Assembly (NCBI GenBank): GCA_020057885.1 | Contig: JAGVEX010000019.1 | Span: forward strand, 8,165-72,164 | Source: a bacterium | GTDB lineage: Bacteria; Patescibacteriota; Patescibacteriia; Veblenbacterales; UBA10138 | DNA: 64,000 nucleotides | Direction of reading: 5' to 3' | Shown: in pieces, positions 1 through 56,941 of the stretch | How positions within the stretch are numbered: the stretch's first letter is position 1 | How the letters are laid out: the number at the start of each line of letters is the position of its first letter | Position numbers and translations under genes: made by a program | Notes under the pieces: generated by a model | Told to the model about the DNA's origin: nothing | Database searches by the model: none | The model's input: the letters and a program-made list of their open reading frames with translations, nothing else

Positions 1-646
1 CTGATAAAACCCACGAAGTTGAACCGGAATCAGAAGCTGAACCTGCGACATAAGGAAATCCGCCGTCGCTATTTTGCGTTTGATGCAAATATTGTAAGGC
101 GGCGGTAATTGATGAATCGCTCGCACTTAGGCCAACCTCTTGCAAAGCCATTAAAACCGCGACCGTGTCATTTGTATCGGCACCAGCACCCACGGCATAG
201 CCCCAGCCGCCATCGGTTTCTTGGTGAGCCAAAAGATAATCTTTGGCACCCATTACCACCGTGTCGGTTTGAGGCACGCCTGCCGCGCGCAAGGCTAAAA
301 TTCCCCACGCGTCATCATTTAATAAATTGGTATCGCCAATTTGCCCGCCTTGGGCTAAATCTTTTAAGCCTTGCACTAAATCAGTGCCGGCAAAAGTGCG
401 TGGATTTTCGCCCACGGCCACTATGGCTAAAATTCTTTTGGCGTAATCCGTAGCTAGTGGACCGCTAAAAGTTTTTAAGTAATCTTTGTTCACACTGCTC
501 TCACCGCCAGCGACCAACGCCATGGTTATCCATTCATTTGGCGTTTGTGATTTTAAATAAGTAACAGCGCTGGAAGTACCGGCTTGCAAAGCCAAGGACG
601 GCACAACAAGCGCGAGGGTGAGTAGGAAGATGAAAATTTTCCGCAT
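1..646 (-). CDS. Secreted prenyltransferase/squalene-oxidase-repeat (terpenoid cyclase-like alpha-alpha toroid) protein, 3'-partial. Start codon is at 644-646 and the gene continues beyond the window start.
   Basis: Reverse-strand translation from the ATG at 646 reads MRKIFIFLLTLALVVPSLALQA (signal peptide). Repeated QxxDGGWG-type motifs follow (HQETDGGWGY, QNSDGGFPY). It is not in the ORF track because it is cut by the window edge. The + ORF 109..453 on the opposite strand is spurious. Confidence 0.6.
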   Translation of the reverse strand, partial: MRKIFIFLLTLALVVPSLALQAGTSSAVTYLKSQTPNEWITMALVAGGESSVNKDYLKTFSGPLATDYAKRILAIVAVGENPRTFAGTDLVQGLKDLAQGGQIGDTNLLNDDAWGILALRAAGVPQTDTVVMGAKDYLLAHQETDGGWGYAVGAGADTNDTVAVLMALQEVGLSASDSSITAALQYLHQTQNSDGGFPYVAGSASDSGSTSWVLS

Positions 647-697: not shown

Positions 698-729
698 GAA
701 TAAAAATCCCCGCTTTCGTAAGCGGGGAT
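698..729 (-). terminator. Rho-independent terminator on the minus strand. Hairpin is at 706-729, followed on the minus strand by a T-run.
   Basis: The minus strand reads GTACCATCCCCGCTTACGAAAGCGGGGATTTTTATTC, a GC-rich stem plus U-tract. It lies directly 3' of the structured RNA described below. Confidence 0.6.
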
Positions 730-732
730 GGT

Positions 733-1110
733 ACAAAAAGCACGGTTAGGGCTTATTTGAACCACCATGAACCACGCAGGGTTCATGGTGTCTGTACCCA
801 ATGCGGTACAGACACCTCCTTTCTCGCGAAGGAAGATTGATAAGGAATACTCCCTAAACTACATAGGGTTTAGGGTTCCACATCCGCTAAAGCGAATGTG
901 GAAAACAATTCAGTAATCGGGCTTGTCAACTTAGAGAGATCAATCTGCTGGTTTTTATGTCCAGCTGGACATAAAAACCCAATTAACAATGATACTCTAA
1001 ATCGAAATACCGTAGCGGGACTGCGCCGGACTCTCCATCCTCGATGGACCACCGGACTTCCCTGAAATGTTGGATAAAATTTGAAAAAACCTTACAAATC
1101 TTTTAAAAAA
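733..1110 (-). ncRNA. rnpB: Putative RNase P RNA (divergent, bacterial-type). The 5' boundary is uncertain.
   Basis: The minus strand contains CAGGGAAGTCCGGTGGTCC, which matches the universal P4/J3-4 motif AGGAAAGUCCGGGCUCC at 15 of 17 positions. The roughly 350-nt region is full of perfect hairpins (GGACATAAAAACC..GGTTTTTATGTCC; GGTGTCTGTACC..GGTACAGACACC; CACCATGAACC..GGTTCATGGTG). It ends in ...AAGCCCTAACCGTGCTT, a possible P4 3' strand, immediately before a terminator. No protein-coding potential is evident. Confidence 0.45.
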
Positions 1111-1166: not shown

Positions 1167-2183
1167 TCATTGCAAAATATTATACCTTGCACCAAAAGAA
1201 ATTTTTCTACAGTCCTCACATAATCCTTCATCTCTAAATAAACTTACAGGGTCATAATAATAAGGTTTCATACATTTTTTGCATTTACCATTAGCGATAT
1301 GATATGCTAAATTTCCAACAACAAAAGGACTCATAAAAGCACTTGCTCCTAGAGAATTTGCACCTAATACAACTTGCCCTGAAGTAGAGCTCAAGGCGCC
1401 ACTTACAGATAATCCCTCATTAGGAACATTTTTTAAGACTAAAGAATTAAAGGTGGATTCTGAAATATTTAATTGCCTTTCCTCTTTAATAATTTTCTTT
1501 GTTGCTACCTGTTTTTTAGTAAAATCATTTATGAACTCACCAAAAATAGTAAATAACTTAATTGTTTTTGCATACTTATTAGTAAATTCTTTTTCTAAAA
1601 ATTCATTTACCTTTTTATTGTTTACTTCACTGGCAAAATCACCATCTCCAGAAATTACTATTAAGTCGTCATCTGTATAACGAGCCAAGATTGTTTCCCA
1701 TATAATGGCGTCACCAAATGAATTGTTGTCTTTACGAGGAGGATTCCTTCTTAAAGTACGATAATAAGCTTTTTGAATCACTTCCTCTGTCTCATCTGTT
1801 TTTTCAGCTAGGACAAATAATTGTTTCAGTTTCTGATTTATTTTACTCTGAGGGTTTAAAATTCGTTTATTGTATTCAGCGAGAACTTCCTTACGAATAG
1901 TTTGTATTTTCCTTAACACTTCCTTTAAATCACGAACCCTCCTATAGGATTGCAAAAAAGTCGGTATACTAATATCTTCTATTGATAGCGACTCAAGTTT
2001 TTTTGTATATTCTTTGGAAACATACATTTTGTCTCTAAAAAACTCGTCTTGAATTTGTTTGGGGAGTATTAATTGCGCCTTTTTTTCTTTAATAATTTTA
2101 ATTAAAGAATCTAAAGATACCAAAGATTGGTCACTTAGTCGATAAAAATTCAAGTATATATTAGTATCAATAAGAACTCTCAT
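1167..2183 (-). CDS. PIN-domain (predicted nuclease) protein with a C-terminal Cys4 zinc-ribbon. The gene is AT-rich.
   Basis: The N-terminus MRVLIDTNIY... and a later GDGDF acidic motif are typical of PIN folds. The C-terminus carries CKKC...CEDC. Local GC is about 30%, versus about 45% in the flanking genes. Confidence 0.6.
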   Translation of the reverse strand: MRVLIDTNIYLNFYRLSDQSLVSLDSLIKIIKEKKAQLILPKQIQDEFFRDKMYVSKEYTKKLESLSIEDISIPTFLQSYRRVRDLKEVLRKIQTIRKEVLAEYNKRILNPQSKINQKLKQLFVLAEKTDETEEVIQKAYYRTLRRNPPRKDNNSFGDAIIWETILARYTDDDLIVISGDGDFASEVNNKKVNEFLEKEFTNKYAKTIKLFTIFGEFINDFTKKQVATKKIIKEERQLNISESTFNSLVLKNVPNEGLSVSGALSSTSGQVVLGANSLGASAFMSPFVVGNLAYHIANGKCKKCMKPYYYDPVSLFRDEGLCEDCRKISFGARYNILQ

Positions 2184-2201: not shown

Positions 2202-2735
2202 TTAATTGCTTTTATGTTCAAAACTATAAATTGAAATGCTTTCCCTTAATGAATGAGCAATTAATAAGTATGCTCCAAATAACACACCAGTGAAAACCAA
2301 ATCCCCTAACATCGTATTTCTAAAAAATGGTAGAGCTAATGTGTAGCAAAGTTGAAGTCCGGCCCAAGTTTTAGGATACCAATCAGCTGTAGCCCATACA
2401 GCAAAGTTTGTGGTGATAAAGAAAAATGTTGACGAAGCCAATGAAGCCAGTAGTAAACGATGTGGTTGCATTTCGCGTAGCCAAGTACCAACAAAAGTCA
2501 TTAACGCAAAACTCGCATACACTGTTAACATCACCGGCAGATGGTAAAAACCGATAATAAAATCCCCGAGCAACATTCCTACAACCGGCACTACAAAAGC
2601 CCACTGGCGCGGCAAAATTGCGCCCGCGAGTAAAGCAACGGCCGCGACAGGCGCTACGTTCCAAACGTGGGGTACAAGGCGGCTAACAACCACTAAAATA
2701 ATTAACAATATACTTATGATTAAATTTTTCTTCAT
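2202..2735 (-). CDS. Polytopic membrane protein (about 5-6 TM helices). It may be a vitamin or B12 transporter S-component-like partner of the upstream DUF4430 protein.
   Basis: The whole 177-aa sequence is hydrophobic. It is co-oriented with, and directly downstream of, the DUF4430 gene. The transporter assignment is inference. Confidence 0.5.
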   Translation of the reverse strand: MKKNLIISILLIILVVVSRLVPHVWNVAPVAAVALLAGAILPRQWAFVVPVVGMLLGDFIIGFYHLPVMLTVYASFALMTFVGTWLREMQPHRLLLASLASSTFFFITTNFAVWATADWYPKTWAGLQLCYTLALPFFRNTMLGDLVFTGVLFGAYLLIAHSLRESISIYSFEHKSN

Positions 2736-2754
2736 ACTGGTAAATTCTGCATTT

Positions 2755-2792
2755 AAATCCTAAATCCTAATATCTAAATCCTAAATAAATCC
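2755..2792 (-). repeat. Short tandem repeat (AGGATTT)n in the 62-bp spacer between the DUF4430 gene and the membrane-protein gene.
   Basis: The minus strand reads GGATTTATTTAGGATTTAGATATTAGGATTTAGGATTT. This gives four AGGATTT units just upstream of the membrane-protein start codon. Confidence 0.5.
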
Positions 2793-2797
2793 AAATT

Positions 2798-3250
2798 TTA
2801 AAATTGCGAAGCACGAAAGGTCCACAATATTGTTTCTCCTCCCTTAAGTTCAAACTTATCCGCGGCCACCATTGGCTGTACGCCATTCACCCAATACTGC
2901 CAATACTTATTGTTTTGTCCGTTTATTTTATCGCCAATTTGTTTCACAAATGCGCCCATAGACGAACTAGCATCGAAATCCAGTTTTAAATTGTTTTGCG
3001 TAGTTACTACTTTTAAAAGTTCCAAAGCATTGGCAGGCTGAGGTAAGGCTAATTTTTCATAACCTGTTATTTTATCGCCGTTATCTATTACTACTACTGC
3101 CGGCAAAGTAACGGGCTTAGCAGTGGAAAATTGAGAGACTGATTCGTTATAAATCTGCGGGCCGGAACCAAGGCTCAACCCAAACAAAAAAATCCCAAAA
3201 GCCGCTACTACGGCCATGCCTACATAAACGATTTTCTGTTTTAAAGACAT
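2798..3250 (-). CDS. Secreted or membrane-anchored DUF4430-family protein (transcobalamin beta-domain-like, putative corrinoid-binding).
   Basis: It has an N-terminal signal anchor (MSLKQKIVYVGMAVVAAFGIFLFGL) and a conserved C-terminal ...GGETILWTFRAS signature typical of DUF4430. Confidence 0.65.
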   Translation of the reverse strand: MSLKQKIVYVGMAVVAAFGIFLFGLSLGSGPQIYNESVSQFSTAKPVTLPAVVVIDNGDKITGYEKLALPQPANALELLKVVTTQNNLKLDFDASSSMGAFVKQIGDKINGQNNKYWQYWVNGVQPMVAADKFELKGGETILWTFRASQF

Positions 3251-3271
3251 ATAATTTGCTATAATATTAAC

Positions 3272-3820
3272 GTGAATATTTATACTAAAACTGGAGATAA
3301 AGGCGAAAGCAGTCTTTATGGCGGAGAACGCCGCACTAAGGACGATCTTAGATTTGAGGCCTACGGCACGGTGGATGAGCTAAACGCTACTTTAGGTTTG
3401 GCTCTGGCGCAAGAGGGCGCGGCTGATTATCTTAAACGCTTGCTGGAAATTCAACAGGAATTATTCACTATCGGCTCCGAGCTCGCTTGCCCGCCAGACA
3501 AAAATGTTTCTGAGCTTAAACTAGTAGATGAATTCGAAGTAAAATCTTTAGAGGATGATATGGATAAACTAGGAACCGAGCTCCAGCCTTTACAAAATTT
3601 TATTTTACCGGGTGGCAGTAGCTTAAGCACTCATTTGCATTTGGCCCGCACTGTTTGCCGACGCGCCGAACGCGCGGCAGTGCGCTTGAATAAAATTGAA
3701 CCAGTGCGGCCAGTGTTATTGCAATTCCTTAACCGCTTAAGCGATTACCTGTTTGTAGTGGCACGACATGCTAATCAAACATTAGGTAAAAACGAACTTA
3801 TTTGGCCGGGACGCAACTAA
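3272..3820 (+). CDS. pduO: PduO-type ATP:cob(I)alamin adenosyltransferase, with a GTG start.
   Basis: The N-terminus (M)NIYTKTGDKGESSLYGGERRTKDDLRFEAYGTVDELNATLG is the canonical PduO/MMAB motif. An extended -10 TGCTATAAT ends about 7 nt before the GTG. Confidence 0.85.
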   Translation: MNIYTKTGDKGESSLYGGERRTKDDLRFEAYGTVDELNATLGLALAQEGAADYLKRLLEIQQELFTIGSELACPPDKNVSELKLVDEFEVKSLEDDMDKLGTELQPLQNFILPGGSSLSTHLHLARTVCRRAERAAVRLNKIEPVRPVLLQFLNRLSDYLFVVARHANQTLGKNELIWPGRN

Positions 3821-3846
3821 AAATTAAGCATCATTTTTTATTTTTA

Positions 3847-3879
3847 CCACACTCTCGCGGGCGAGCGAGAGTGGTTTTT
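3847..3879. terminator. Bidirectional intrinsic terminator between the convergent pduO and nrdJ genes.
   Basis: CCACACTCTCGCGGGCGAGCGAGAGTGG is followed by TTTTT on the plus strand. The minus strand has an A/T-run after the same hairpin. Confidence 0.6.
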
Positions 3880-3885
3880 AGTTTT

Positions 3886-6183
3886 TTACTTTAATTCACA
3901 CGCTCCAGAAACGCAGGCCAGCTCTTTGGAACCTTCGGTTTGATCTTCGTACTCATAAGTCACTATTTTGGAAAAATCAATCTCCGGGAACTGGCTAGCC
4001 ATCTCCTCATATTTTTCTTTAGTAATTTCTTCATAAGGCGCTAATTGATAAACATGTTCATCGCGCGGCAAAAAGGAAAGCCCACCCACCAAATCCCAAC
4101 TTTCATAAACCCAACTGCCTACTTTAAGCCATTCGTCGCCGCCGACTGAAATGGTAACGGAAGGATTGTGCTCGGTATATTTGGTTTTAAGCATTTTCCA
4201 GTGTGCCAAAAGATCCATGGCGGAAACATCACGCCGCACAATAGCGCCCGTGGGCGACTTAATAGGGAATTCCAGCACAAAAGTATTGGCGGTAGTTTCA
4301 GTTTGGCCTACTTCGGGATGATAAGTTACACCCATATCTTTAAGCATCATAAACAAAGGATTGTGTTTTTCAATACGGACGCGGCGAATATAGTAAGGCG
4401 CGTGCCTGGGGTGCATACCTGAAGATGAATCAAACAACTGTGATCCATTGCCCGAAGGTTTAACGCAAGTGATAGCCGTGGCTGGATTAATGCCAAAACG
4501 TTTGGCATATTCTTTGTTAACCTCAATAGCCAACTCACGCATCTTGTTAAGTGTTTCCGGATTACGCACCGCCGGACAATCCCACTGCCCGGTAATAGAA
4601 ACTCCCAAAAGCGCTTCTTGCTCACAATGGTCTTTCCACTCCGGCGAAAGATAGGGAAAGTTTGTTAAGCTGGCCTGATAAGTACCGAGGATAGTAGCAA
4701 TGCGAACTTTTTTAAGCAGGGTGGCTTCGGTATCTTCGGCGCGGGCCACTACTTCTGATAAATTACAAAATTGTTTTGACTTTAAAATTATTTCGCCGCA
4801 CGGATTTACGCCGCAAGTTTGATAATCCGGCTGGAACAAAGGCCAGCGACGAGCGGGAAGTTGCTTTTCCAAACTGCCGCGGTTATAAATACCACGCTCA
4901 CCCGAACCGGACTTTACTAAATTAAACCACTCGTCCATAAATTGAGTAAGCGGTGGTTTGGCGTTATACACCGCGGAATTGTTGGCCATACTGCGCTCGG
5001 GATGCGTTAAGTAAAATTGACCATTTTTAGCTTCACGCATTTCTTGATCATCTATATCAGAAATTGATATTAAAGCGGAACGCCTTACTCCTCCCATTAC
5101 TACCACTTCGCCAATTTTACAAACAATATCGTGCACATCAATAGTGGTTAAGTGTCGCCCCTGGCGTGAAAGAAGCTTAGCGCGCGTAAAATCTAGTAAC
5201 GCCTTTAAAGGACCTGGGCCTGAGGCGCGGCCTCCCATAGTTTTTAACCGAGAACCTTGCGGACGGATTTGCGAATAATCAAAATCAATATCTTTACCGG
5301 TGGCCCAAGTATTAAGTCCGAGTGCCAAAGCATCGCTCCAGCCTTCTTTGCTATCTTTTACTATGTGAGTAAAAAGTTTAACATTGCTTTGGCGTTTAAT
5401 AATAGGGAGCATTTCCACGGTCTGCCGCTCCACCGAAAAACCAGCGCCGGTGCCGCACATTAAAATGTACATAATTTCCGCAAAATCCTGCCAGCAGGTA
5501 GGCGCTACAAAAGAACAATTATAAGCGCAAACATTGGTAGCGCGAGCGGCTTGGCCAGCCCCCCACAACAAACGCATAGAACCAAGCGCTTCCATTTTTA
5601 ACATTGATTCTTTGATTTCGGTATATTCACCCTCGGTTAATTTGGTACCCAAAATTTCACGCATAAAATCAAGGTAGCGTAAAACTGTTTCTACCCAAGT
5701 TTCGCGACGCTGTGCATTGGGCAACCATTTAGAATAAGTGCTGTAATAAACAAACTCAGCAAGCTGGTTGCGAAAATATTTTTTACTCTCTTGGGCGAGC
5801 TGGCGAACTTCGGTGGGAATTTCGCGGCGAACTTTTCTTAGTTTAGCGTGCTCTTCACGATAAAGAATATAAACTTTAGCAGTTTTAAACCATTTAGAAC
5901 GCATTAACACAAGTTCCACAATATCCTGCACCTGCTCTACGGTGGGAGTAATATGACCATCGTACAAAGCTTCTAACTCCTCTGCTACTTTAAAAGCCAA
6001 ACGCGCCGCTTCGTCACGTTTGAATTCTTTTGTTTCGAGACCAGCTTTGGTTATAGCCTCCACAATTTTCTTAGGATCAAAATCAACCAACCGACCATCA
6101 CGCTTAATAATATGACTTAATTTTTTATCTTTCGCTCCACTACTAACAGTGGTGGTGGAACTAGCGTGACTTGGATTAGGCAT
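3886..6183 (-). CDS. nrdJ: Adenosylcobalamin-dependent (class II) ribonucleotide reductase with an N-terminal ATP-cone.
   Basis: The ATP-cone reads IIKRDGRLVDFDPKKIVEAI. The active site reads GVNPCGEIIL...FCNLSEV (NPCGE). A C-terminal Cys pair (CVSGAC) is present. No NrdB/F gene is adjacent, and the gene is flanked by nrdR and B12-handling genes. Confidence 0.8.
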   Translation of the reverse strand: MPNPSHASSTTTVSSGAKDKKLSHIIKRDGRLVDFDPKKIVEAITKAGLETKEFKRDEAARLAFKVAEELEALYDGHITPTVEQVQDIVELVLMRSKWFKTAKVYILYREEHAKLRKVRREIPTEVRQLAQESKKYFRNQLAEFVYYSTYSKWLPNAQRRETWVETVLRYLDFMREILGTKLTEGEYTEIKESMLKMEALGSMRLLWGAGQAARATNVCAYNCSFVAPTCWQDFAEIMYILMCGTGAGFSVERQTVEMLPIIKRQSNVKLFTHIVKDSKEGWSDALALGLNTWATGKDIDFDYSQIRPQGSRLKTMGGRASGPGPLKALLDFTRAKLLSRQGRHLTTIDVHDIVCKIGEVVVMGGVRRSALISISDIDDQEMREAKNGQFYLTHPERSMANNSAVYNAKPPLTQFMDEWFNLVKSGSGERGIYNRGSLEKQLPARRWPLFQPDYQTCGVNPCGEIILKSKQFCNLSEVVARAEDTEATLLKKVRIATILGTYQASLTNFPYLSPEWKDHCEQEALLGVSITGQWDCPAVRNPETLNKMRELAIEVNKEYAKRFGINPATAITCVKPSGNGSQLFDSSSGMHPRHAPYYIRRVRIEKHNPLFMMLKDMGVTYHPEVGQTETTANTFVLEFPIKSPTGAIVRRDVSAMDLLAHWKMLKTKYTEHNPSVTISVGGDEWLKVGSWVYESWDLVGGLSFLPRDEHVYQLAPYEEITKEKYEEMASQFPEIDFSKIVTYEYEDQTEGSKELACVSGACELK

Positions 6184-6253
6184 AAATATTTTTTGGTTAA
6201 TTGATTTTAAGTTTTATCTATCTGCTCATAAGGGCAGTGAATTATCTTTACAC

Positions 6254-6718
6254 TTACCGGCTAGTTGGTACACGACGCAAACCTTTAAGTTCGCGCGTGA
6301 AACTTTCCACGTCTTGAAAGGAACGGTAGACACTGGCAAAACGAATGTAGGCCACCTGATCAAAATTTTTAAGACGCTTCATTACAATTTCGCCAATTTC
6401 ACGCGAGGTAAGTTCTAGTTTACGTTTTTTTTGAATATCGCGCTCAATTTTTTGCACTAAACCCTTAAAAGCCTCAGCCGTATGTGGACGTTTTTCTAAA
6501 GAATGCTTTAGACCAGCCACTAACTTATCTTTACTGTAAGGCTCGTGCCGACCATCGCGCTTAACAACCGTCAGATCCAAAATTTCACTTTCTTCTACGG
6601 TAGAAAAACGAAAATTGCATTTAGTGCATTCACGGCGGCGGCGGATGCTAAAACCATCAGTGGAAACACGTGAATCTGATACTTTAGTGTCGCAATAATT
6701 GCACAAAGGACAGTGCAT
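6254..6718 (-). CDS. nrdR: Transcriptional repressor NrdR (zinc ribbon plus ATP-cone).
   Basis: MHCPLCNYCDTKVSDSRVSTDGFSIRRRRECTKCNFRFSTVE is the hallmark NrdR N-terminus. The protein is 154 aa. Confidence 0.9.
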   Translation of the reverse strand: MHCPLCNYCDTKVSDSRVSTDGFSIRRRRECTKCNFRFSTVEESEILDLTVVKRDGRHEPYSKDKLVAGLKHSLEKRPHTAEAFKGLVQKIERDIQKKRKLELTSREIGEIVMKRLKNFDQVAYIRFASVYRSFQDVESFTRELKGLRRVPTSR

Positions 6719-6734
6719 AGTTTTTTAGCACCAA

Positions 6735-6789
6735 CCACTATATGTAGTAGTACTATGATAAATTGTACCTCTATATATGGGGTTGTCAA
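6735..6789 (-). promoter_or_regulatory. The nrdR promoter on the minus strand (-35 TTGACA at 6784-6789, 16-nt spacer, -10 TACAAT at 6762-6767), with two NrdR-box-like palindromes.
   Basis: On the minus strand, box 2 (CCCCATATATAGAGGT) sits inside the -35/-10 spacer. Box 1 (ACTACTACATATAGTGGT) lies downstream of the -10. The box centres are about 32 bp apart. Both resemble the NrdR consensus acaCwAtATaTwGtgt. Confidence 0.55.
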
Positions 6790-6910
6790 AAATTGAACAA
6801 ACCCTTATTTTGCAGGCATTTACCGTGCTCTAGGTTGCCAGTAAGACAATGGTTGTGGATAACATTAGCTTGAATATTAAAATGGGCAAGTGGGTATTAA
6901 ATCTACAACT

Positions 6911-6938
6911 AAAAAAGCCCCAGAATTAACTGGGACTT
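6911..6938 (-). terminator. Intrinsic terminator downstream of ftsZ.
   Basis: The minus strand reads AAGTCCCAGTTAATTCTGGGGCTTTTTT. Confidence 0.5.
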
Positions 6939-6981
6939 TAAATATTTACTTATTTAAGTGTCGTAAAATAATGAAGCTTTG

Positions 6982-12869: not shown

Positions 12870-15800
12870 TTACTTGGTTATTGTCAAAGTGCCAGCCTCA
12901 CTTGTCTTAGTCATATAACCAACACCTGGATCAATTTGGGCTACACCAGCAACCCAAGCATTATTATAATAATAAACATCACCGATTGTACCTGGGGAAT
13001 ATGTTATGGCACTAAGAGGTACTGAAGTAGACAATGAACCAAATCCATTCCATCCAAGAGGCAATGGTACAGAAAAATTTGAAATTGCAGAAAAACCAGT
13101 AATAGTTACATCTTCAGCGTAACCAAATTTGATAAAATAGGCCAACCCGACCTGAAGATTAGTCACACCAACATACGCACCATTTAAGTACTGATATGCT
13201 TCGCTAGTCGCGGTTGGAAACAGGACATTGGTAGCCGAGTTTAGCACATTAAATGGCAAAGAAATAAAATTCCAACTTGCTACCATATTATAGGTATGGG
13301 TCAAAACCGGAATAATGTTAAATGTCGCTGTCACGGTAACAGCTGAATTTACAGTACAAGTACCTGTGCCAGTACAACCTCCGCCGCTCCAACCGCCAAA
13401 GGTAGAACCTGCGGCAGGTGTAGCAGTTAAAGTAACAGACGAAGTAAATGATCCTGTACAAGTGGCACCACAATTAATTCCCGCTGGGCTACTAGTAACA
13501 GTGCCCGAGCCGGTTCCAGCCTTAGCCACTGTTACGGCAAATGGCGCAGTGGTGAAAGAGGCGGCCACTGATTTATTGCCATCCATTGTAATTACACAAT
13601 TGCCAGTGCCATTAGTACAAGCCCCGCTCCAGCCCCCAAAAGTAGCGCCCGCATCCGGAGTTGGGACAAGCGCAACTTGTGTGCCAGCAGGATAAGACCA
13701 ACTACACCCAACACCACTCGGAAGACAATTAATATTTGGACCTGTTACAACACCAGAGCCAGTAGTAGTTACGTTCAAAGTATAGTTTGTAGTACTAAAA
13801 GTAACTGTGACAGTTTTAGCCGCATCCATTGTTACCTGACAAGTAGATGGTGGTGGCGTTGGCAATGCTGGTTTACAAACTGCTGGAACATCAGTGCCGC
13901 TCCAACTTACAGTAGAGCCGAGAGAAGGGTTAGCAGTTAAGGTAACGGTTGTAATTGGACTGCCTGGATATACATATGTACAAGCATCACTACTACAGTT
14001 AGCACTAGGAGTGCTTAAATCAACAGTACCACTGCCACCGCCGCCACTAGCAATATTTAAAGTAAGTATATGAGAAGTGAAAGTGGCTGTGACATTTTTA
14101 GCTGTATTCATTGTTACTTGACAAGTGGCTGGTGGTGTTGGCAGTGCTGGCGTACAAGTTGCAGGAACATCACCACTCCACCCCTCAAAACTACCTAAAG
14201 TTGGTACGGCTGTTAATGTTACTACGTCAGTAGCGTTATAAGGCGCACTGCAAGTTGAACCGCAATCAATTTTAGTATCTGAACTGCTAACTGTGCCAGC
14301 ACCAGTACTGAGTCCTTTTGTTACAGTAAGTATGTTGGCGTTAAAAGTAGCTTCGGCAATTATATCGCCGGTAGTAGGTATTGTAACCGTACATTGGTTA
14401 CCAGTAAGAGAAGGACAAGCTGTCCAAGCTCCAATGCAATTATAAGGCCAAGCGCTAACTTGCGTACAAATTCTCCAGCCACCAAAAGTGCCTACCGTAA
14501 CTTGGGGAATTAAAGAAACAATACTCCCTTGTTGATAAAGTCCATCACAATCCGCACCACAGTTAATACCTGGCGGGTTACTGGTTATAAGGCCCGTACC
14601 ATTACCAGCTTTACGAGCAAATAAAAATTGAGAGGGGGCCAATTTAAACACAGCTGTTACTGTTTTATTGATATTAATGGTTAATGTACATTGACCACTG
14701 AGGGTGCAATCGCCTTCCCATTTATCAAAAATATACGCGCCAACTAGACTAGCCGGAACTGGCGGATTTAGATAATCAGCTGATGGCATTAAACTAACAA
14801 TTGAACCAGCCACAAAACGAGCGGAGCAACTACTACTACCATTACCACAATCAATACCTACTGGATTAGAAGTCACGCGATGATAAATAGTATCTATAGT
14901 ACTAGTATTTGATATCCATATTTTCTTATTAACTGTCAATGTATACGCCAAAGCAAAATTAGCTATAACATTTGTATTGGTATCCATAGTTACGGTGCAG
15001 GTAAGCGCCACGCCACAACTAGCCAAACTCCAGCTAGTAAATACTGAACTAGCATCTGCTGATGCAGTTAAAGTAACAGCATTGCTAGCGCTAGAACTTT
15101 TGCCATACGCCCCAGTACAATCAGATCCACAATCAATACCTATGGGGCTGCTTGTTACGCGACCTGTACCATTGCCCCCTTTGATCACATTGAGTGTTAC
15201 TTTTTCGGCAAATTGAGCTGTAATTATTCTATCTTGATCCATGGTCATATCACAAGTAAGGGAAGTACTGCCATAACATGGCGCACCTAGCGCGCTTAAC
15301 CAACTCATAAATATTGAATTACTATCGGGCGTAGCAATTAATTTTACAATAGTTGTTACTGGCGGCGTACCAGTACCACTCTGTTGATATGCCTGAATAC
15401 AGTGACTACCTCCCGAGCCGCACTTTATTGGATCAGATGAAGGAATATCGCTAATCACCGTACCAGTGCCTGTGCTATAACCAATAGGGGTGCTGGTAGA
15501 AACCGACAAAGTGGCACGTGGTTCAAAAGTAGCTGTTACTGTAGTTGCTCCAACCACAATAATCGTACAACTGCTATTACCGCCACATCTAACCGTACCG
15601 TTTACATCCCAACCCACAAAGAAATCTGTTAATGCTACGGCGGCATTTAACACCACGCTTGTTCCTCCTGTATAACTATCAACGCAATCAGACCCGCAAT
15701 TAATTTGTGGTGTAGGCTCGTTACTTTTTACTATGTTAGCGATATTATTCGCCCTAGAACCCTCTTTTGCCACTGTTAAATCGTAACCTCTGATACTAAA

Positions 15801-18800
15801 AGTAGCTGTGACATTTTTAGCCGTGTTCATTGTTACCTGACATGTAGTTGGTGGTGTTGTTGGCAGTGCTGGCGTACAAATTGCAGGAACATCACCAGTC
15901 CAACCAGTAAAAGTAGAATCAGAATTTGGCACTGCCTGCAAAGTTACTAAACTATCACCAATATAATCAAAACTACAAATTAAGCCACAATTAATTCCGG
16001 CTGGCGTACTTGTAACCGTGCCCGAACCGGTGCCAGTGCGCTGTGTTTGAAGACTGTAAGAAATGCGCGTAAAATTAGCAGTCACCGAAACATTACCAGT
16101 AAGCTTAATAGTACAAGTAGCACTAGTACCAGCGGCAGCACAAGCTCCGCCCCAACCTGCAAACACATAACCAGCTAGGGGTGTGGCGTTTAAAATTGCG
16201 CTCTCACCATCAGCGTAATCGGCTGTACATCCGCTAGCTGGCAAACCAGAACCGCAATTTACTTTTCCATCAACGCTCGTTACTGTACCCGATGAATTAA
16301 CAGTTAAAGATAAAGTTTGCTTAGGCACAAAAGTAGCTGTTACCGATAGCGCGGCATCTCTAATCATAATTGTACAAGTGCCCGTACCACTACAGGCTCC
16401 ACTCCAGCCAGCAAATATAGTAGAACCATCCATGGGGTTTACTGCGGTTAGAGCAATGGTGGTGCCGCTAGGAATATTGGCTGTAGAACAGGTTGTGGTA
16501 GTAAGAGTGGTACAAGTAGGCACACTTGCCACATTACTCGTCACACTGCCCTGACCTGATACGGTAATATTCAGGCCATACATATTTTCAGCAAAATTGG
16601 CCGAAGTTGAGAACGTACTCGTACCAGTTATAATATCTACTGTACAAATTGGGCCAACGGTACTGCTACAAACTCCACCCCAACCAATAAATCGGGAACC
16701 GGTTCTGGGCAAGGCTGTTAGGGCAACTTTTGTATTCACTGCATAAGCAGCGCTACAAGCTAAACCGCAACTTATTTTTGGCGTGGGTTCGTTACTAACC
16801 ACTGAGCCATTACCAGAAGAAGTAACGTTTAGTGTAGGTGATTCATAATTAATTAAATTTTTAATACTATCACACTCATCGGTGGTTGGGATTGTTATAG
16901 CGCTTCCTGTACCTTTCCACCACGTTACATTTTTAAATTCTGCATTAAAGGAAAGCTCAGCCCGACTGTTTGCCAAAACACGATATTGATATACATGAGA
17001 ACCTGCCGGACACGGTTCTACAAATTTTTTAGCATCAGCGCTCCAGCATGTTTTGGAATCATAACTCGTTGGACAATCTTTAAATTTATTAATCGGATCA
17101 ACTGGTAAACTGCGTGACATAGCGGCACCCAAGGTCTGTTGCCAAGAATACCAGGTACTAGCGCTGTGCCCTACTTCGTAAGAACCAGCTGACAAAGGAG
17201 GTACGCTATTAGAATGTGTGGCGGCATAACTATCCAAAGCTTTAGGAATAGTCCGCGCAACATCCGTTAGACGCTTTATATCATTTTTTATTTGTGCTTT
17301 GGCATCGGGCAAGGCAGATAAATTGGTATTAAAAACCCAATTCTTAATTAACTCTTGATAAATAGTTTGAGTAGAGGTAACTGCGCCTCGGTTATATCCC
17401 ATAACATACATATCGGTGTACATGGCATCGGGCGGAGTCACTGGATCTTCTGCTAAATTAGGAGCTGATATATAAACTGTAGTACCATCCTGAACAGCTG
17501 AATAACCATCAACTGTAACATCGTTTAATCCCCCTTTAACAATATCCGGACGAGACATATACCATGTACGGGGTAACATAGTATCAATAGATGTTTCATA
17601 AACACGCAAGCCGATGGCATCGGGACTGGCGGGATTTTTAAAGAAATATTCATAATTGCCTACCGGCTCGTTTGGTATGGGATTAGCAACGGAAACAGTT
17701 AAGGCTGGCAATATATCGCTGGCGCCAATTTTTTTTACTGTTAAGTTGTCAAAATAAATTGGAACACTGGTAAGAGTACCTGTAAGAGAAGTGTCCGCAT
17801 TTATACCTAAACATAAAGTTTGGATGGTTTGCGCGCCAGTGTTAAATACTAATTGCATAGCTTGCCAACCCTCTGCCCGAGGCAGTTGAGTAGACTGTGT
17901 CCAGCCGCAACTAGTGCCAGGCGCAATGGCCATAACGCCACTGACTGATTGTGTTATATTGGCACCTACATAAGCATAAACAAGAGCTGAATAACTAGTA
18001 TCTTTTTCTAAATTGATAAAAGTATGCCCTATGGAATAATTAGTTGGGGCTAAACCAATAGTGCGTGTGCTTATACTGCTAACATCCCCTGGCGCAAAAG
18101 TTTGGGGCGCGGAACTTATACTCCAAACAGCAGTATTGCCTACAGTCCATTCGCTTATATTATTAAAACTTTCTGTTTCGTTGGTTCCAATAAGTACGGG
18201 GGTTAAAGTACCAGTAATTGTTTTGGCGCGGCAATAGCGCAGACGGAAATTATGCTGGCTATCTTCAAACTCCCAAGGCACCTCACAAATATAAATATCC
18301 AAGGGGGCGGAGGCCTGCTTAACGCCAGCAATTCCGCCATTAACAGTAACCTTGAGTAAAGCTTGACCGTTGCGTGTACCAGATGTTACAAATGTTGGAT
18401 TAGCAGTGACCGAGGACAAACTAATTAAATTATTAGGATCGTCCTTTTGCCAAGCATAAGAAGCTGTTAGAAGTTGACCGTCTTTTGCTAAAGCATTGGC
18501 TCTAAATTCTTTGCGTTCGTTCGATTTAGTGAAACTCCAACTATTTGGACTAATTGTTACTTTATCAATTAAACATACTTCCGCACTTGTAGAAAAAATA
18601 ACTTCACAGCCTGGCACGCCGCCGCAATCCAAAACCTCTCCTAACACTCCTCTAATACTGGCGTCAACTGTTAAATGATATTGATTATTTGGTAGTAAGG
18701 GCGTTGTTGGTATAAAAGACACTCGACTCTTTTCAATTTTCAATTGACCAACCACAGGAATAAAGGGGTTTGATGTAGTATTATCTAATCTAAAACTAGC

Positions 18801-43685: not shown

Positions 43686-44189
43686 ATGAAAAAATTAATC
43701 ATTTGGACATCTGTTGTTGTCATAATACTCGGCACTGTTATTGTCTATCTTGTATACAACAAACAACAGCAAGATAGTTTAAAAAATAAAAGCTATCGTA
43801 GTGCGCCCAGCGACAGTATGAAAATTGTTTATCTGGCTAACGCGGATACAATTGCCAAGGCAAAGGATGGTGTGGCAAATTTACTCTATAAATTGAGTAA
43901 TTATTTTGACGCTGTAATTTGGATTACAACTACGCCTGATTCATTTCCCTCAGCTGATCCGCTTGATCCACGAATTAAATATTATACGTCGCCAAACGAC
44001 AGTGAGGCTATTTTGTTAGCCAAAAAAATATTTATTGACAATGGTTGGCCACAAACTGCTCGTATACGTTATATATTCCACAGCAATATGCTTATCTCCT
44101 CACAAGAAGAGATGATTAAAAAATTGGTCAAAGATGGAATTATAATAACAGGTGTACAAGTGGGATATAATTATACTCCACTAAAATAA
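43686..44189 (+). CDS. Hypothetical membrane-anchored protein (167 aa).
   Basis: An N-terminal TM segment reads LIIWTSVVVIILGTVIVYLVY. No other motif was recognised. Confidence 0.45.
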   Translation: MKKLIIWTSVVVIILGTVIVYLVYNKQQQDSLKNKSYRSAPSDSMKIVYLANADTIAKAKDGVANLLYKLSNYFDAVIWITTTPDSFPSADPLDPRIKYYTSPNDSEAILLAKKIFIDNGWPQTARIRYIFHSNMLISSQEEMIKKLVKDGIIITGVQVGYNYTPLK

Positions 44190-56720: not shown

Positions 56721-56941
56721 AAAATATCTAAATACTCTCTTAGTTTATTAATAATGAATGATGGGCGTTTTTTGGCAATGGCAAACTCTAATATATTTTC
56801 CACCAATTTATAAATTTGTTCATGATCATGCTTCCCAGTAGTTTTCCATAAAATGGCTAAAAATTCTTCCACATCCATCTCGCTCATCCAGCCTAATACT
56901 AAATTTTTATCCACAGTCTTATTTTCCAACATAGTAGTCAA
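56717..56941 (-). CDS. Hypothetical small protein (74 aa).
   Basis: Support is the ORF only. A perfect hairpin terminator (CCACCCTCATGGGGTGG) lies at 56990-57006. Confidence 0.3.
   Translation of the reverse strand: MTTMLENKTVDKNLVLGWMSEMDVEEFLAILWKTTGKHDHEQIYKLVENILEFAIAKKRPSFIINKLREYLDIF

What the first reader, a model, noticed from the sequence alone, without database searches (positions are those of the whole stretch)
2202..6789. B12 acquisition/activation module wired to a class II RNR under NrdR control
Five adjacent genes all point to cobalamin-dependent dNTP synthesis. They are a secreted DUF4430 protein (transcobalamin beta-domain-like), a small polytopic membrane protein in the same operon (a possible corrinoid transporter component), a divergently transcribed PduO-type ATP:cob(I)alamin adenosyltransferase, nrdJ (NPCGE active site, ATP-cone, no NrdB partner), and nrdR. 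The nrdR promoter (TTGACA-16-TACAAT on the minus strand) holds two NrdR-box-like palindromes about 32 bp apart, one inside the -35/-10 spacer and one just downstream of the -10. This is the classic architecture for cooperative NrdR repression. In a reduced genome this looks like a self-contained salvage, adenosylation and use unit for B12. The DUF4430/membrane pair is a candidate corrinoid uptake system that has not been characterised.
Basis: partly seen in the sequence, partly recalled or inferred. Interest (0 to 1): 0.6.

Follow-up and report, generated by a model that had tools for sequence, protein, structure and literature searches.

The report
Vitamin B12 uptake-and-use gene island
A small-genome (Patescibacteria) bacterium keeps its genes for capturing, importing, activating and using vitamin B12 for DNA-precursor synthesis in one place, and the importer belongs to a large, unstudied protein family that looks like a distant cousin of a known B12 transporter.

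Summary
All five genes exist at the stated coordinates. They encode a DUF6580 membrane protein, a membrane-anchored DUF4430 protein, a PduO-type adenosyltransferase, an ATP-cone plus RTPR-like class II RNR, and NrdR. The nrdR promoter (TTGACA-16-TACAAT) carries two NrdR boxes. With a matrix built only from relatives, these are the two best matches in the 64 kb window. Their layout is conserved in related genomes.

The DUF4430 model matches transcobalamin, intrinsic-factor and haptocorrin beta-domains. The DUF6580 model has an ECF S-component fold and is a remote homolog of CbrT, the Lactobacillus B12 S-component. Among 80 DUF6580 loci, 47 have DUF4430 immediately upstream. Cobalamin riboswitches precede 13 of 39 loci scanned. 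One natural DUF6580-DUF4430 fusion exists.

The island extends past the finding. A sub-threshold but positionally conserved AdoCbl riboswitch (1083-947) precedes a transcobalamin-like secreted protein cut by the window edge.

It is not unprecedented. Lactobacilli carry nrdJ-cbrS-cbrT-pduO, and I show cbrS is DUF4430. I rate it a new variant of a known kind. Three points are open: DUF6580 itself is uncharacterised, no ECF module lies nearby, and the role of the transcobalamin-like partners is unknown.

The parts
2..646 (-). N-terminal 215 codons of a secreted transcobalamin-like protein (signal peptide plus alpha/alpha-toroid). The gene is cut by the window edge.
   Evidence: Pfam SQHop_cyclase_C/N hits. 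Full-length orthologs of about 590 aa in L001, L085 and L021 carry alpha/alpha toroid, DUF4430 and Ig-like domains.
706..729 (-). Hairpin plus T-run between the aptamer and the ATG at 646. It is a candidate riboswitch expression platform (terminator).
   Evidence: Terminator scan: 10 pairs, 6 of them GC, with a TTTTATT tail.
947..1083 (-). AdoCbl-riboswitch-like aptamer, below Rfam's threshold.
   Evidence: RF01482 scores 32.2 bits against a gathering score of 50 (E=5e-4 in 701 nt, E=0.0056 in 7.3 kb). Orthologous positions in relatives score 50.8 (L006), 39.9 (L001), 37.9 (L004), 30.0 (L005) and 33.9 (L085). The B12-box core CAGTCCCGCTACGGTA is identical in the window and the four close relatives aligned, L001, L004, L005 and L006.
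1167..2183 (-). PIN-domain gene in a variable slot. It is probably not part of the B12 function.
   Evidence: Pfam PIN_12 and PIN_8. The same slot holds a Schlafen AlbA_2 gene in L085 and a trypsin-like gene in L001. No PADLOC hit.
2202..2735 (-). DUF6580 membrane protein. It is S-component-like and the predicted corrinoid translocator.
   Evidence: PF20221, E=9e-50. AF2 pLDDT 93.4. The top 20 Foldseek PDB hits are all ECF S-components, with BtuM first. The profile's only PDB sequence hit is CbrT, 6FNP_A. hhalign against the CbrT family gives 95.4% probability, E=1.9e-8.
2798..3250 (-). Membrane-anchored DUF4430 protein (CbrS-like, transcobalamin beta-domain fold).
   Evidence: PF14478, E=9e-13. 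AF2 pLDDT 85.8, with a TM helix at 3-28 and a beta-domain at 51-147. Foldseek hits to TC, IF and HC beta-domains. hhalign against L. helveticus CbrS gives 91% probability, E=1e-6.
3272..3820 (+). PduO-type ATP:cob(I)alamin adenosyltransferase.
   Evidence: TIGR00636, 186 bits against a cut-off of 108. PDB 1RTY and PduO/MMAB structures at E of 1e-40 to 1e-33.
3850..3873 (+). Terminator hairpin between the convergent pduO and nrdJ genes.
   Evidence: 9 pairs, 6 of them GC, followed by GTTTTTAGTT.
3886..6183 (-). Class II (adenosylcobalamin-dependent) ribonucleotide reductase. It is RTPR-like with an added N-terminal ATP-cone.
   Evidence: PF03477 at residues 24-113, plus PF17975 and PF21995. TIGR02505 scores 293 bits, below its cut-off of 340. 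1L1L at E=7.5e-48, with NPCGEI and the C-terminal Cys pair aligned.
6254..6718 (-). NrdR repressor (Zn-ribbon plus ATP-cone), the first gene of the nrdR-nrdJ operon.
   Evidence: TIGR00244, 174 bits against a cut-off of 125. The 70-nt gap to nrdJ has no predicted promoter or terminator.
6735..6750 (-). NrdR box 2 (CTACTACATATAGTGG). It covers roughly +6 to +21 of the predicted transcript.
   Evidence: PWM score 16.3 bits, rank 2 in the window. Conserved in L085, L004 and L005.
6762..6789 (-). Sigma-70-like nrdR promoter: TTGACA (6789-6784), a 16-nt spacer and TACAAT (6767-6762).
   Evidence: Matches 11 of 12 positions and is the best site in the region. The hexamers are conserved in L085 and L004.
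6768..6783 (-). NrdR box 1 (ACCCCATATATAGAGG). It is exactly the -35/-10 spacer.
   Evidence: PWM score 16.6 bits, rank 1 in the window. Conserved in relatives.
6854..6862 (-). Perfect DnaA box TTATCCACA, 65 bp upstream of the -35.
   Evidence: Invariant in the window, L085, L004 and L005 while the flanks diverge. Only 2 perfect copies occur in 64 kb, against 0.49 expected.
6914..6939 (-). Terminator after ftsZ. It isolates the nrdR promoter from upstream transcription.
   Evidence: 10 pairs followed by a T-run.

Best explanation
The region is a vitamin-B12 salvage-and-use island in a Patescibacteria (Kerfeldbacteria-like) genome. It is a distant counterpart of the Lactobacillus nrdJ-cbrS-cbrT-pduO cluster.

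Proposed mechanism:
1. Outside the cell membrane, corrinoid is captured by transcobalamin-like proteins. One is a long secreted alpha+beta protein whose mRNA leader carries an AdoCbl-type riboswitch (window 1083-947, gene from 646 leftwards). The other is a short, membrane-anchored beta-domain-only protein (DUF4430, CbrS-like).
2. The corrinoid is handed to DUF6580. This is a six-helix S-component-like membrane protein remotely related to CbrT, and it carries the corrinoid across the membrane. It works either alone, like BtuM, or with an ECF ATPase module encoded elsewhere.
3. PduO adenosylates cob(I)alamin to adenosylcobalamin.
4. Adenosylcobalamin serves the RTPR-like class II ribonucleotide reductase, whose own ATP-cone probably provides dATP/ATP activity control.
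5. nrdR and nrdJ form one operon. Its sigma-70-like promoter is overlapped by two NrdR boxes with a 17-bp linker. dATP/ATP-loaded NrdR tetramers would therefore block RNA polymerase and autoregulate the operon. A conserved DnaA box upstream may add replication-linked control.

Shown here: gene identities, folds, homologies, motif significance, conservation of gene order, riboswitch linkage and the fusion protein.

Inferred: corrinoid binding, the direction and energetics of transport, hand-off between the proteins, and repression in vivo.
For: - Gene identities.
- DUF4430 fold: all 19 significant Foldseek hits are DUF4430 or TC, IF or HC beta-domains.
- DUF6580 fold: the top 20 Foldseek hits are all ECF S-components, and the B12-specific BtuM is first. 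The only PDB sequence hit of the family profile is CbrT, 6FNP_A, at E=0.0028. The profile-profile match to the CbrT family has 95.4% probability, E=1.9e-8, over 150 columns.
- Known precedent: the L. delbrueckii nrdJ-cbrS-cbrT-pduO cluster, with ECF-CbrT shown to transport cobalamin (PMC5997447). I verified that the cbrS position holds a DUF4430 gene in L. helveticus and on a contig carrying a 99%-identical copy of L. delbrueckii CbrT.
- Gene neighbourhood in 80 DUF6580 loci from GTDB species genomes: DUF4430 lies immediately upstream on the same strand in 47. A corrinoid adenosyltransferase is within 6 kb in 24 (PduO in 14, CobA-type in 10, a non-orthologous replacement). A class II RNR is within 6 kb in 23, and a TC-like alpha+beta protein in 22.
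- Riboswitches: cobalamin or AdoCbl riboswitches at Rfam gathering score lie on the same strand upstream in 13 of 39 loci scanned. The phyla include Bacteroidota, Ignavibacteria, Rokubacteria, Thermoanaerobaculia, Actinomycetes and Patescibacteria. L006 adds one more.
- In Bacteroidota and Ignavibacteria the riboswitch operon is TonB-dependent receptor followed by DUF6580, and next to MetH in L031. This is the same context that led to BtuM (PMC6072759).
- Rosetta-stone fusion: P0312 is DUF6580, then a TM helix, then DUF4430 in one 337-aa protein.
- NrdR boxes: ranks 1 and 2 in the window, with 0 of 100 simulations reaching the tandem score. Tandem boxes at 32-33 bp spacing occur upstream of nrdR in 8 of 11 relatives. 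Promoter and boxes align across 4 genomes. A 17-bp linker lies within the experimentally functional 14-17 bp class (PMC12051234).
Against: - There is no biochemical evidence for any step.
- The window has no cobalamin riboswitch at Rfam's curated threshold. The one found scores 32 bits against 50, and its outer helix is partly broken.
- DUF4430-DUF6580 in this window has no recognisable B12-responsive control. Only 21 bp separate it from the divergent pduO gene.
- Foldseek E-values for DUF6580 are weak (0.02-0.06), although probabilities are 1.0 and TM-scores are 0.6-0.7.
- ECF-CbrT works without CbrS in E. coli and in liposomes (PMC5997447), so the DUF4430 partner may be dispensable or have another role.
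- Solitary CbrT did not support growth in that study. DUF6580 may therefore need an ECF module, and none is within 10 kb.
- A related ECF plus TC-like operon in L. sakei has been linked to haem, not B12 (bioRxiv 10.1101/864751).
- RTPR family membership is below NCBIfam's equivalog cut-off (293 against 340 bits).
Confidence: 0.78

Rival explanations
1. The genes are the same, but DUF6580 is an ordinary group-II ECF S-component. It would dock onto a shared EcfA/A'/T module encoded elsewhere in the genome, exactly like ECF-CbrT. DUF4430 would be an accessory. This differs from the main explanation only in the energetics.
For: Remote homology to CbrT. Some CbrT-family members also hit PF20221 (P0230, P0233 and P0271). 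Solitary CbrT did not support growth in E. coli (PMC5997447). Group-II S-component genes are typically unlinked to their ECF module (established knowledge from Rodionov 2009, which I could not read here).
Against: Only 3 of 80 DUF6580 loci have any ABC ATPase within 6 kb. None is among the ORFs of at least 150 aa examined at 10000-64000 of the window. None is within 10 kb in L085. The family is common in Bacteroidota and Ignavibacteria next to TonB receptors, the context of the ECF-independent BtuM. Whole genomes could not be searched.
Confidence: 0.35
2. The DUF4430/DUF6580 pair imports a different tetrapyrrole or metal chelate, such as haem. That claim has been made for the L. sakei Lsa1836-1840 system, which has transcobalamin-like alpha and beta proteins. 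Its position next to B12 genes would then be secondary.
For: The L. sakei preprint links an ECF plus TC-like operon to haem content. The PDB entry 3U7Z for DUF4430 is titled 'putative metal binding protein'.
Against: Cobalamin riboswitches directly precede DUF4430/DUF6580 in many phyla. The pair is repeatedly linked to corrinoid adenosyltransferases of two unrelated types and to B12-dependent RNR and MetH. No haem-related gene turned up in the neighbours that were Pfam-scanned or that carry precomputed Pfam annotation in L085.
Confidence: 0.07
3. The adjacency is incidental packing in a compact genome. DUF4430/DUF6580 would have a cell-envelope role unrelated to B12, since some database entries call DUF6580 proteins MreD-like and the cluster sits beside ftsA and ftsZ. 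The AT-rich palindromes would be chance.
For: One UniRef name for a homolog begins 'Rod s...', read here as rod-shape protein MreD (P0080). ftsZ and ftsA are adjacent. The genome is AT-rich.
Against: The linkage to B12 genes and riboswitches holds across unrelated phyla with different surrounding genes. The palindromes are the two top PWM hits in 64 kb and are conserved in position.
Confidence: 0.03

Closest known systems
Lactobacillales nrdJ-cbrS-cbrT-pduO cluster and the ECF-CbrT vitamin B12 transporter (Rodionov 2009; Santos et al. 2018, PMC5997447, PDB 6FNP)
   Same: It has the same four functions side by side: an RTPR-type class II RNR, a small DUF4430 protein, a six-helix S-component-type membrane protein and a PduO adenosyltransferase. 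DUF6580 and CbrT are detectable homologs and share an R-x(6-8)-NVxPV loop motif.
   Different: The membrane protein belongs to PF20221 (DUF6580), not PF12822, and the relationship shows only at profile level. The window's DUF4430 has an N-terminal membrane anchor, whereas Lactobacillus CbrS has a cleavable-looking signal peptide. The RNR here carries an ATP-cone and is co-transcribed with nrdR under NrdR boxes. There is an extra riboswitch-led transcobalamin-like alpha+beta gene. No ECF module is known for this organism.
BtuM, a solitary S-component-like B12 transporter and decyanase of Proteobacteria (Rempel et al. 2018, PMC6072759; PDB 6FFV and 8OVV)
   Same: It is the best structural match to the DUF6580 model. 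Both are small S-component-fold proteins. BtuM is found with BtuB and without an ECF module, as DUF6580 is in Bacteroidota and Ignavibacteria loci.
   Different: The DUF6580 profile does not detect BtuM by sequence. No cysteine is invariant or nearly invariant in DUF6580, so BtuM's cysteine-cobalt ligation is probably not conserved. BtuM has no DUF4430 partner that I know of.
L. sakei Lsa1836-1840, an ECF-like system with separate transcobalamin alpha-like and beta-like extracellular proteins (bioRxiv 10.1101/864751)
   Same: An S-component is combined with extracytoplasmic transcobalamin-like proteins proposed to scavenge the ligand and pass it on.
   Different: That operon encodes its own EcfAA' and EcfT and was linked to haem. 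Here there is no ECF module, and the context (PduO, NrdJ, riboswitch) points to corrinoids.
Streptomyces coelicolor nrdRJ operon and the tandem NrdR-box/NrdR-tetramer mechanism (Rozman Grinberg et al. 2022, PMC9110341; PMC12051234)
   Same: nrdR lies upstream of nrdJ in one autoregulated operon. There are two 16-bp partial palindromes about three helical turns apart, overlapping the promoter.
   Different: The linker is 17 bp, against the most common 15-16 bp, and relatives have 16-17 bp. The NrdJ is the monomeric RTPR type. A conserved DnaA box lies upstream.
Mammalian transcobalamin, intrinsic factor and haptocorrin
   Same: The short DUF4430 protein matches their beta-domain (for example 5NO0, TM-score 0.68). 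The ~590-aa proteins combine an alpha/alpha toroid with a DUF4430 domain in the same order as TC.
   Different: Sequence identity is 13-21%. The bacterial proteins are membrane-anchored or carry extra Ig-like domains. Ligand binding is untested.

Membership tests
ECF-transporter S-component (CbrT-like, vitamin B12-specific) | Six-helix S-component fold | tested here: met
   AF2 model with pLDDT 93.4. The top 20 Foldseek PDB hits are all S-components (BtuM, FolT, ThiT, RibU, PanT), with TM-scores of 0.5-0.7.
ECF-transporter S-component (CbrT-like, vitamin B12-specific) | Sequence membership in the CbrT / PF12822 family | tested here: not met
   Pfam gives only PF20221 for the window protein, while CbrT hits PF12822. 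The relationship shows only at profile level (95.4% probability, E=1.9e-8; PDB profile hit E=0.0028).
ECF-transporter S-component (CbrT-like, vitamin B12-specific) | Works with an EcfA/A'/T energising module | tested here: inconclusive
   No ORF with Walker A plus the ABC signature among the ORFs of at least 150 aa at 10000-64000 of the window. Only 3 of 80 loci have one within 6 kb, and none is in L085 within 10 kb either side. The rest of the genome could not be reached.
ECF-transporter S-component (CbrT-like, vitamin B12-specific) | Binds and transports cobalamin or cobinamide | not testable with these tools
   Only contextual evidence is available: riboswitches in 13 of 39 loci, and neighbouring ATR, NrdJ and MetH genes.
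BtuM-type solitary B12 transporter | Conserved cysteine that ligates cobalt and decyanates cyanocobalamin | tested here: not met
   No Cys is among the invariant or >=90% conserved columns of 44 DUF6580 sequences. His23, Arg19, Asn26, Asp58 and Tyr64 are conserved instead.
DUF4430 / transcobalamin beta-domain | Pfam PF14478 above the gathering score and a beta-domain fold | tested here: met
   48.9 bits against 23.8. Foldseek gives 3U7Z at 3e-6, 2BB6 at 9e-6, 2PMV at 2e-5, 5NO0 at 3e-5 and 4KKI at 5e-5.
DUF4430 / transcobalamin beta-domain | Corrinoid binding | not testable with these tools
   No ligand assay or docking is available. The conserved motif is NGxxxKYWQYWVNGxQPxVAAD.
PduO-type ATP:cob(I)alamin adenosyltransferase | NCBIfam TIGR00636 above its cut-off, full length | tested here: met
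   186.1 bits against 108.45, covering residues 4-178 of 182. Matches solved PduO, MMAB and YvqK structures.
Class II RNR, monomeric RTPR subclass | TIGR02505 equivalog score | tested here: not met
   292.9 bits against a cut-off of 340.05. The protein is RTPR-like but outside the curated equivalog.
Class II RNR, monomeric RTPR subclass | Active-site NPCGE loop, the RNR-II insertion domain that replaces the dimer partner, and a C-terminal redox cysteine pair | tested here: met
   PF21995 at 29.7 bits against 27. The alignment to 1L1L (E=7.5e-48) shows NPCGEI aligned and CVSGAC against CEGGAC at the C-terminus.
Class II RNR, monomeric RTPR subclass | Uses nucleoside triphosphates as substrate; adenosylcobalamin dependence | not testable with these tools
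   Requires an enzyme assay.
NrdR regulon | NrdR protein (Zn-ribbon plus ATP-cone) | tested here: met
   TIGR00244 at 174.3 bits against 124.65, plus PF22811 and PF03477.
NrdR regulon | Two 16-bp partially palindromic boxes separated by 14-17 bp at an RNR promoter | tested here: met
   Boxes at 6783-6768 and 6750-6735 with a 17-bp linker. PWM ranks 1 and 2. Conserved in relatives. The functional spacing range is given in PMC12051234.
Cobalamin riboswitch (RF01482 AdoCbl / RF00174) | Rfam gathering score | tested here: not met
   Window 1083-947(-) scores 32.2 bits against 50.
Cobalamin riboswitch (RF01482 AdoCbl / RF00174) | Conserved position and B12-box core in orthologous loci | tested here: met
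   The same slot before the TC-like gene scores 50.8 (L006, above the gathering score), 39.9, 37.9, 30.0 and 33.9 bits in relatives. The core CAGTCCCGCTACGGTA is identical in the window, L001, L004, L005 and L006. Covariation could not be assessed, because the MAFFT/RNAalifold alignment was uninformative.

The most novel reading that the evidence does not exclude
DUF6580 with its DUF4430/transcobalamin-like partners is a distinct, widespread corrinoid importer. In it, an extracytoplasmic binding protein loads a solitary S-component-fold translocator that works without any ECF ATPase module. ECF-type and BtuM-type systems are defined by having no binding protein, so this would be a new transporter architecture. 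It would also be the main route by which Patescibacteria, and many Bacteroidota and Ignavibacteria, obtain B12. The family has about 6,300 clusters at 50% identity.
Probability: 0.3. Interest if true: 0.75.

Novelty: new variant of a known kind. Interest (0 to 1): 0.5.

Why it matters
Most bacteria that need B12 cannot make it, and for many lineages the inner-membrane importer is unknown. Patescibacteria depend on neighbouring cells for cofactors, and here dNTP synthesis itself appears to hinge on scavenged B12.

The analysis turns an anonymous Pfam family, DUF6580, into a concrete candidate. The family has about 6,300 clusters at 50% identity and at least 590 GTDB species genomes. It is a CbrT-related corrinoid translocator that travels with transcobalamin-like capture proteins.

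This gives a testable function to CbrS/DUF4430, which has been left unexplained since the Lactobacillus cluster was described. It also raises the question of whether S-component-fold proteins can be fed by binding proteins and work without an ECF module.

The NrdR and RNR part is textbook biology and mainly serves as a well-conserved anchor for the annotation.

Tried and rejected
- Single-sequence searches of PDB sequences gave nothing useful for either DUF protein. Profiles were needed.
- Literature searches for DUF6580, DUF4430, PF20221 and PF14478 found no functional study. Rodionov et al. 2009, the source of the cbrS/cbrT names, is not held. I therefore established cbrS = DUF4430 from Lactobacillus contigs instead.
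- L047 seemed to hold a 618-aa DUF6580 fusion. It was an artefact of a long stop-free frame in GC-rich DNA; the real gene starts near 2724, after a separate 629-aa ORF that matches the TonB-dependent receptor query.
- Attempts to reach the rest of the 171-kb contig with the look-up of encoding contigs returned only a 4.4-kb duplicate assembly. The genome-wide ECF question stays open.
- RNAalifold on a MAFFT alignment of the riboswitch candidates gave no usable consensus structure.
- The PIN protein has no PADLOC match.
- The other PWM hits, at 45110 and 43883, lie inside coding regions and were dismissed as chance.
- The hypothesis that the palindromes are chance AT-rich sequence was rejected.

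Full report
**What is in the sequence**

- 2202-2735(-), 177 aa: DUF6580 membrane protein (PF20221, E=9e-50).
- 2798-3250(-), 150 aa: DUF4430 protein (PF14478, E=9e-13).
- 3272-3820(+), 182 aa: PduO-type adenosyltransferase (TIGR00636, 186 bits against a cut-off of 108).
- 3886-6183(-), 765 aa: ribonucleotide reductase with an N-terminal ATP-cone (residues 24-113), RNR_Alpha and the class II insertion domain.
- 6254-6718(-), 154 aa: NrdR (TIGR00244, 174 bits against 125).

The RNR's best solved relative is the monomeric Lactobacillus leichmannii RTPR (1L1L, E=7.5e-48). The NPCGEI loop and the C-terminal cysteine pair align. It scores 293 bits on the RTPR equivalog model, below the 340-bit cut-off, so I call it RTPR-like with an added ATP-cone. 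Upstream lie ftsZ and ftsA, and there is no NrdB-type gene in the operon. Homologs show the organism is a Patescibacteria, closest to Candidatus Kerfeldbacteria MAGs.

**The NrdR site**

The promoter is TTGACA (6789-6784), a 16-nt spacer, then TACAAT (6767-6762). It is the best promoter-like match in the region. It follows a terminator that closes ftsZ (6939-6914).

Box 1 (6783-6768) is exactly the -35/-10 spacer. Box 2 (6750-6735) begins 11 nt after the -10. I collected candidate boxes upstream of nrdR in 11 relatives. Eight have a tandem pair 32-33 bp apart.

A position weight matrix built from those relatives only, excluding the window, ranks the two window boxes first and second among all 16-mers of the 64-kb window. 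They score 16.6 and 16.3 bits, and the next best is 13.4. About 0.02 sites of that quality are expected by chance, and none of 100 simulated sequences reaches the tandem score.

The alignment of four promoter regions shows the -35, box 1, the -10 and box 2 as conserved islands.

The linker is 17 bp, one more than the usual 15-16. Published binding and reporter data place 14-17 bp in the functional class (PMC12051234). The nrdR-nrdJ autoregulated operon is the classical Streptomyces arrangement. This part of the finding is correct and ordinary.

**The DUF4430 protein**

The AlphaFold model (pLDDT 85.8) has an N-terminal transmembrane helix (3-28), a disordered linker and a compact beta-domain (51-147). 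All 19 Foldseek hits with E<=1e-3 are one of two kinds. One is the DUF4430 crystal structure 3U7Z. The others are beta-domains of transcobalamin, intrinsic factor or haptocorrin, including the isolated human TC beta-domain 5NO0 (TM-score 0.68). I would call the protein membrane-anchored rather than secreted.

**The DUF6580 protein**

The model is confident (pLDDT 93.4). Its top 20 structural matches are all ECF-transporter S-components, and the B12-specific BtuM (8OVV) is first.

The family profile hits only one sequence in the whole PDB: chain A of 6FNP (E=0.0028). 6FNP is the ECF-CbrT vitamin B12 transporter (PMC5997447). Searching with that chain's aligned residues returns a 182-aa PF12822 S-component at 99% identity, so I take chain A to be CbrT. 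A profile-profile comparison with an alignment of CbrT homologs gives 95.4% probability (E=1.9e-8) over 150 columns, and a loop motif R-x(6-8)-NVxPV is shared.

CbrT itself belongs to PF12822, not PF20221. DUF6580 is therefore a sister family, not CbrT proper.

**Comparative genomics**

A scan of GTDB species genomes found at least 590 DUF6580 loci, and I kept the best 80.
- A DUF4430 gene lies immediately upstream on the same strand in 47 of them. About 13 more have one within 6 kb.
- A corrinoid adenosyltransferase is within 6 kb in 24. It is PduO-type in 14 and the unrelated CobA-type in 10, a non-orthologous replacement that points to function rather than ancestry.
- A class II RNR is nearby in 23, NrdR in 11, and a ~600-aa transcobalamin-like protein (alpha/alpha toroid plus DUF4430) in 22.

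Rfam finds cobalamin-class riboswitches at gathering score, on the same strand and upstream, in 13 of 39 loci scanned. The phyla are Bacteroidota, Ignavibacteria, Rokubacteria, Thermoanaerobaculia, Actinomycetes and Patescibacteria.

In Bacteroidota and Ignavibacteria the riboswitch operon is a TonB-dependent receptor followed by DUF6580. In L031 it sits next to metH. This is the same kind of context that led to BtuM (PMC6072759).

An exhaustive profile search counts 6,310 cluster representatives of the family. Among the top hits is a natural fusion, P0312: DUF6580, then one transmembrane helix, then DUF4430. The fusion supports a physical partnership and an outward-facing DUF4430 domain.

**The known precedent**

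Santos et al. state that in L. delbrueckii CbrT lies in an nrdJ-cbrS-cbrT-pduO cluster. I retrieved the locus from L. helveticus and from a contig carrying a 99%-identical CbrT. The gene at the cbrS position is a DUF4430 protein, flanked by an RTPR-type nrdJ and pduO. It aligns with the Patescibacteria DUF4430 family at profile level.

The window therefore holds the same four-function module as the Lactobacillus cluster. The differences are:
- a more divergent S-component family;
- an ATP-cone on the RNR;
- NrdR control;
- a membrane anchor on the DUF4430 protein in place of a signal peptide.

A preprint on L. sakei already proposes that transcobalamin-like alpha and beta proteins feed an ECF S-component, though for haem.

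**Beyond the finding's coordinates**

A permissive Rfam search shows an AdoCbl-riboswitch match at 1083-947 on the minus strand. It scores 32.2 bits against a gathering score of 50 (E=5e-4 within 701 nt). It is followed by a terminator-like hairpin (729-706). An ORF then starts at 646 and runs off the window. That ORF encodes a signal peptide and an alpha/alpha toroid.

In the closest relatives the same slot carries an AdoCbl or cobalamin hit, always in front of the ~590-aa transcobalamin-like gene. The scores are 50.8 bits in L006, 39.9 in L001, 37.9 in L004, 30.0 in L005 and 33.9 in L085. The B12-box core is identical in the window and the four close relatives aligned, L001, L004, L005 and L006. 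I regard it as a genuine but divergent riboswitch. Covariation could not be shown.

Between DUF6580 and this leader is a variable slot. It holds a PIN gene here, a Schlafen AlbA_2 gene in L085 and a trypsin-like gene in L001.

**Energetics**

None of the ORFs of at least 150 aa examined at 10000-64000 of the window has a Walker A motif plus the ABC signature. Only 3 of 80 loci have such an ORF within 6 kb, and L085 has none within 10 kb. Group-II S-components are normally unlinked to their ECF module, and solitary CbrT was inactive in E. coli. I therefore cannot decide between a shared ECF module and a BtuM-like solitary mode. The rest of the contig could not be fetched.

DUF6580 lacks a conserved cysteine, so it is unlikely to use BtuM's cobalt ligation chemistry.

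**Verdict**

The system is best described as a Patescibacteria variant of the CbrS/CbrT-PduO-NrdJ B12 salvage module, joined to a standard NrdR-controlled nrdRJ operon and to a riboswitch-led transcobalamin-like scavenger.

It is not categorically new. Its value is that it gives a large unknown family (DUF6580) and its DUF4430 partner a specific, testable role. It also raises the possibility of a binding-protein-fed, ECF-independent S-component transporter.

Noticed in passing
window 947-1083 (-), 706-729 (-), 2-646 (-): A sub-threshold AdoCbl riboswitch (32.2 bits), a terminator hairpin and the start of a secreted transcobalamin-like alpha/alpha-toroid protein lie just left of the finding. 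The riboswitch and gene recur in the same order in L001, L004, L005, L006 and L085.
   Followed up: yes
window 6854-6862 (-): A perfect DnaA box, TTATCCACA, lies 65 bp upstream of the nrdR -35. It is invariant in four related genomes while the flanking sequence diverges. Only two perfect copies occur in 64 kb (the other at 56907-56915). This suggests DnaA input into nrdR-nrdJ expression.
   Followed up: partly
window 1167-2183 (-); L085 10572-11519; L001 1508-2233; L004 6583-7467; L005 6541-7792: The slot between DUF6580 and the riboswitch/TC-like gene holds a different gene in each relative. Here it is a PIN_12 protein with a C-terminal Cys-rich tail, in L085 a Schlafen AlbA_2 gene, in L001 a trypsin-like gene, and in L004 and L005 other small ORFs. 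It looks like an insertion hot spot. The PIN protein has no PADLOC match.
   Followed up: partly
P0312 (337 aa, metagenomic protein): A natural single-chain fusion of DUF6580, a transmembrane helix and DUF4430. P0293 (372 aa) has an unassigned 196-aa N-terminal extension on DUF6580.
   Followed up: partly
L077 5309-5998, L075 2835-3746, L047 (phmmer hit): A Diphthami_syn_2 (PF01902, DUF71 ATP-binding) gene sits between the cobalamin riboswitch or TonB receptor and DUF6580 in Bacteroidota and Rokubacteria loci, and a match to it also occurs in the Thermoanaerobaculia locus L047. It is an unexplained recurrent member of these B12 operons.
   Followed up: no
L036 4447-5958, with homologs in L024, L043 and L070: A ~504-aa protein with no Pfam hit lies directly upstream of DUF6580-PduO in L036, where an AdoCbl-II riboswitch precedes it. 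phmmer finds homologs within the flanks of three other loci, whose riboswitch status was not checked. It may replace DUF4430 or the TC-like protein.
   Followed up: no
window 2741-2790 (intergenic between DUF4430 and DUF6580): There are four copies of GGATTT (three of them GGATTTA) on the coding strand of the 62-nt intercistronic spacer. Relatives have other short repeated motifs at the same place (TTTTGCA x3 in L085; GAATC/GATTC arrays in L001 and L005). The function is unknown.
   Followed up: partly
window 3251-3274: Only 21 bp separate the divergent DUF4430 and pduO start codons. TGcTATAAT (3257-3265) is a perfect extended -10 whose predicted start would coincide with the pduO GTG, giving a leaderless mRNA. 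In L085 a ~146-nt palindromic element is inserted at this point.
   Followed up: partly
L010 4673-5176, L021 1030-1557 and 8 other loci: A CobA/BtuR-type adenosyltransferase replaces PduO next to DUF4430-DUF6580 in 10 of 80 loci, a non-orthologous displacement. L010 keeps the ftsA-ftsZ-nrdJ synteny of the window and has a full-score cobalamin riboswitch directly before DUF4430.
   Followed up: partly
window 12870-23822 (-) and 24798-30320 (-): Two giant ORFs of 3650 aa and 1840 aa, each with a hydrophobic N-terminus. They are typical of Patescibacteria surface proteins and were not analysed.
   Followed up: no
window 45110-45125 and 43883-43898: The third and fourth best NrdR-box PWM matches (13.4 and 12.2 bits) lie inside coding regions (ORFs 44292-45770 and 43686-44189) and have no tandem partner. 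They are probably chance.
   Followed up: partly
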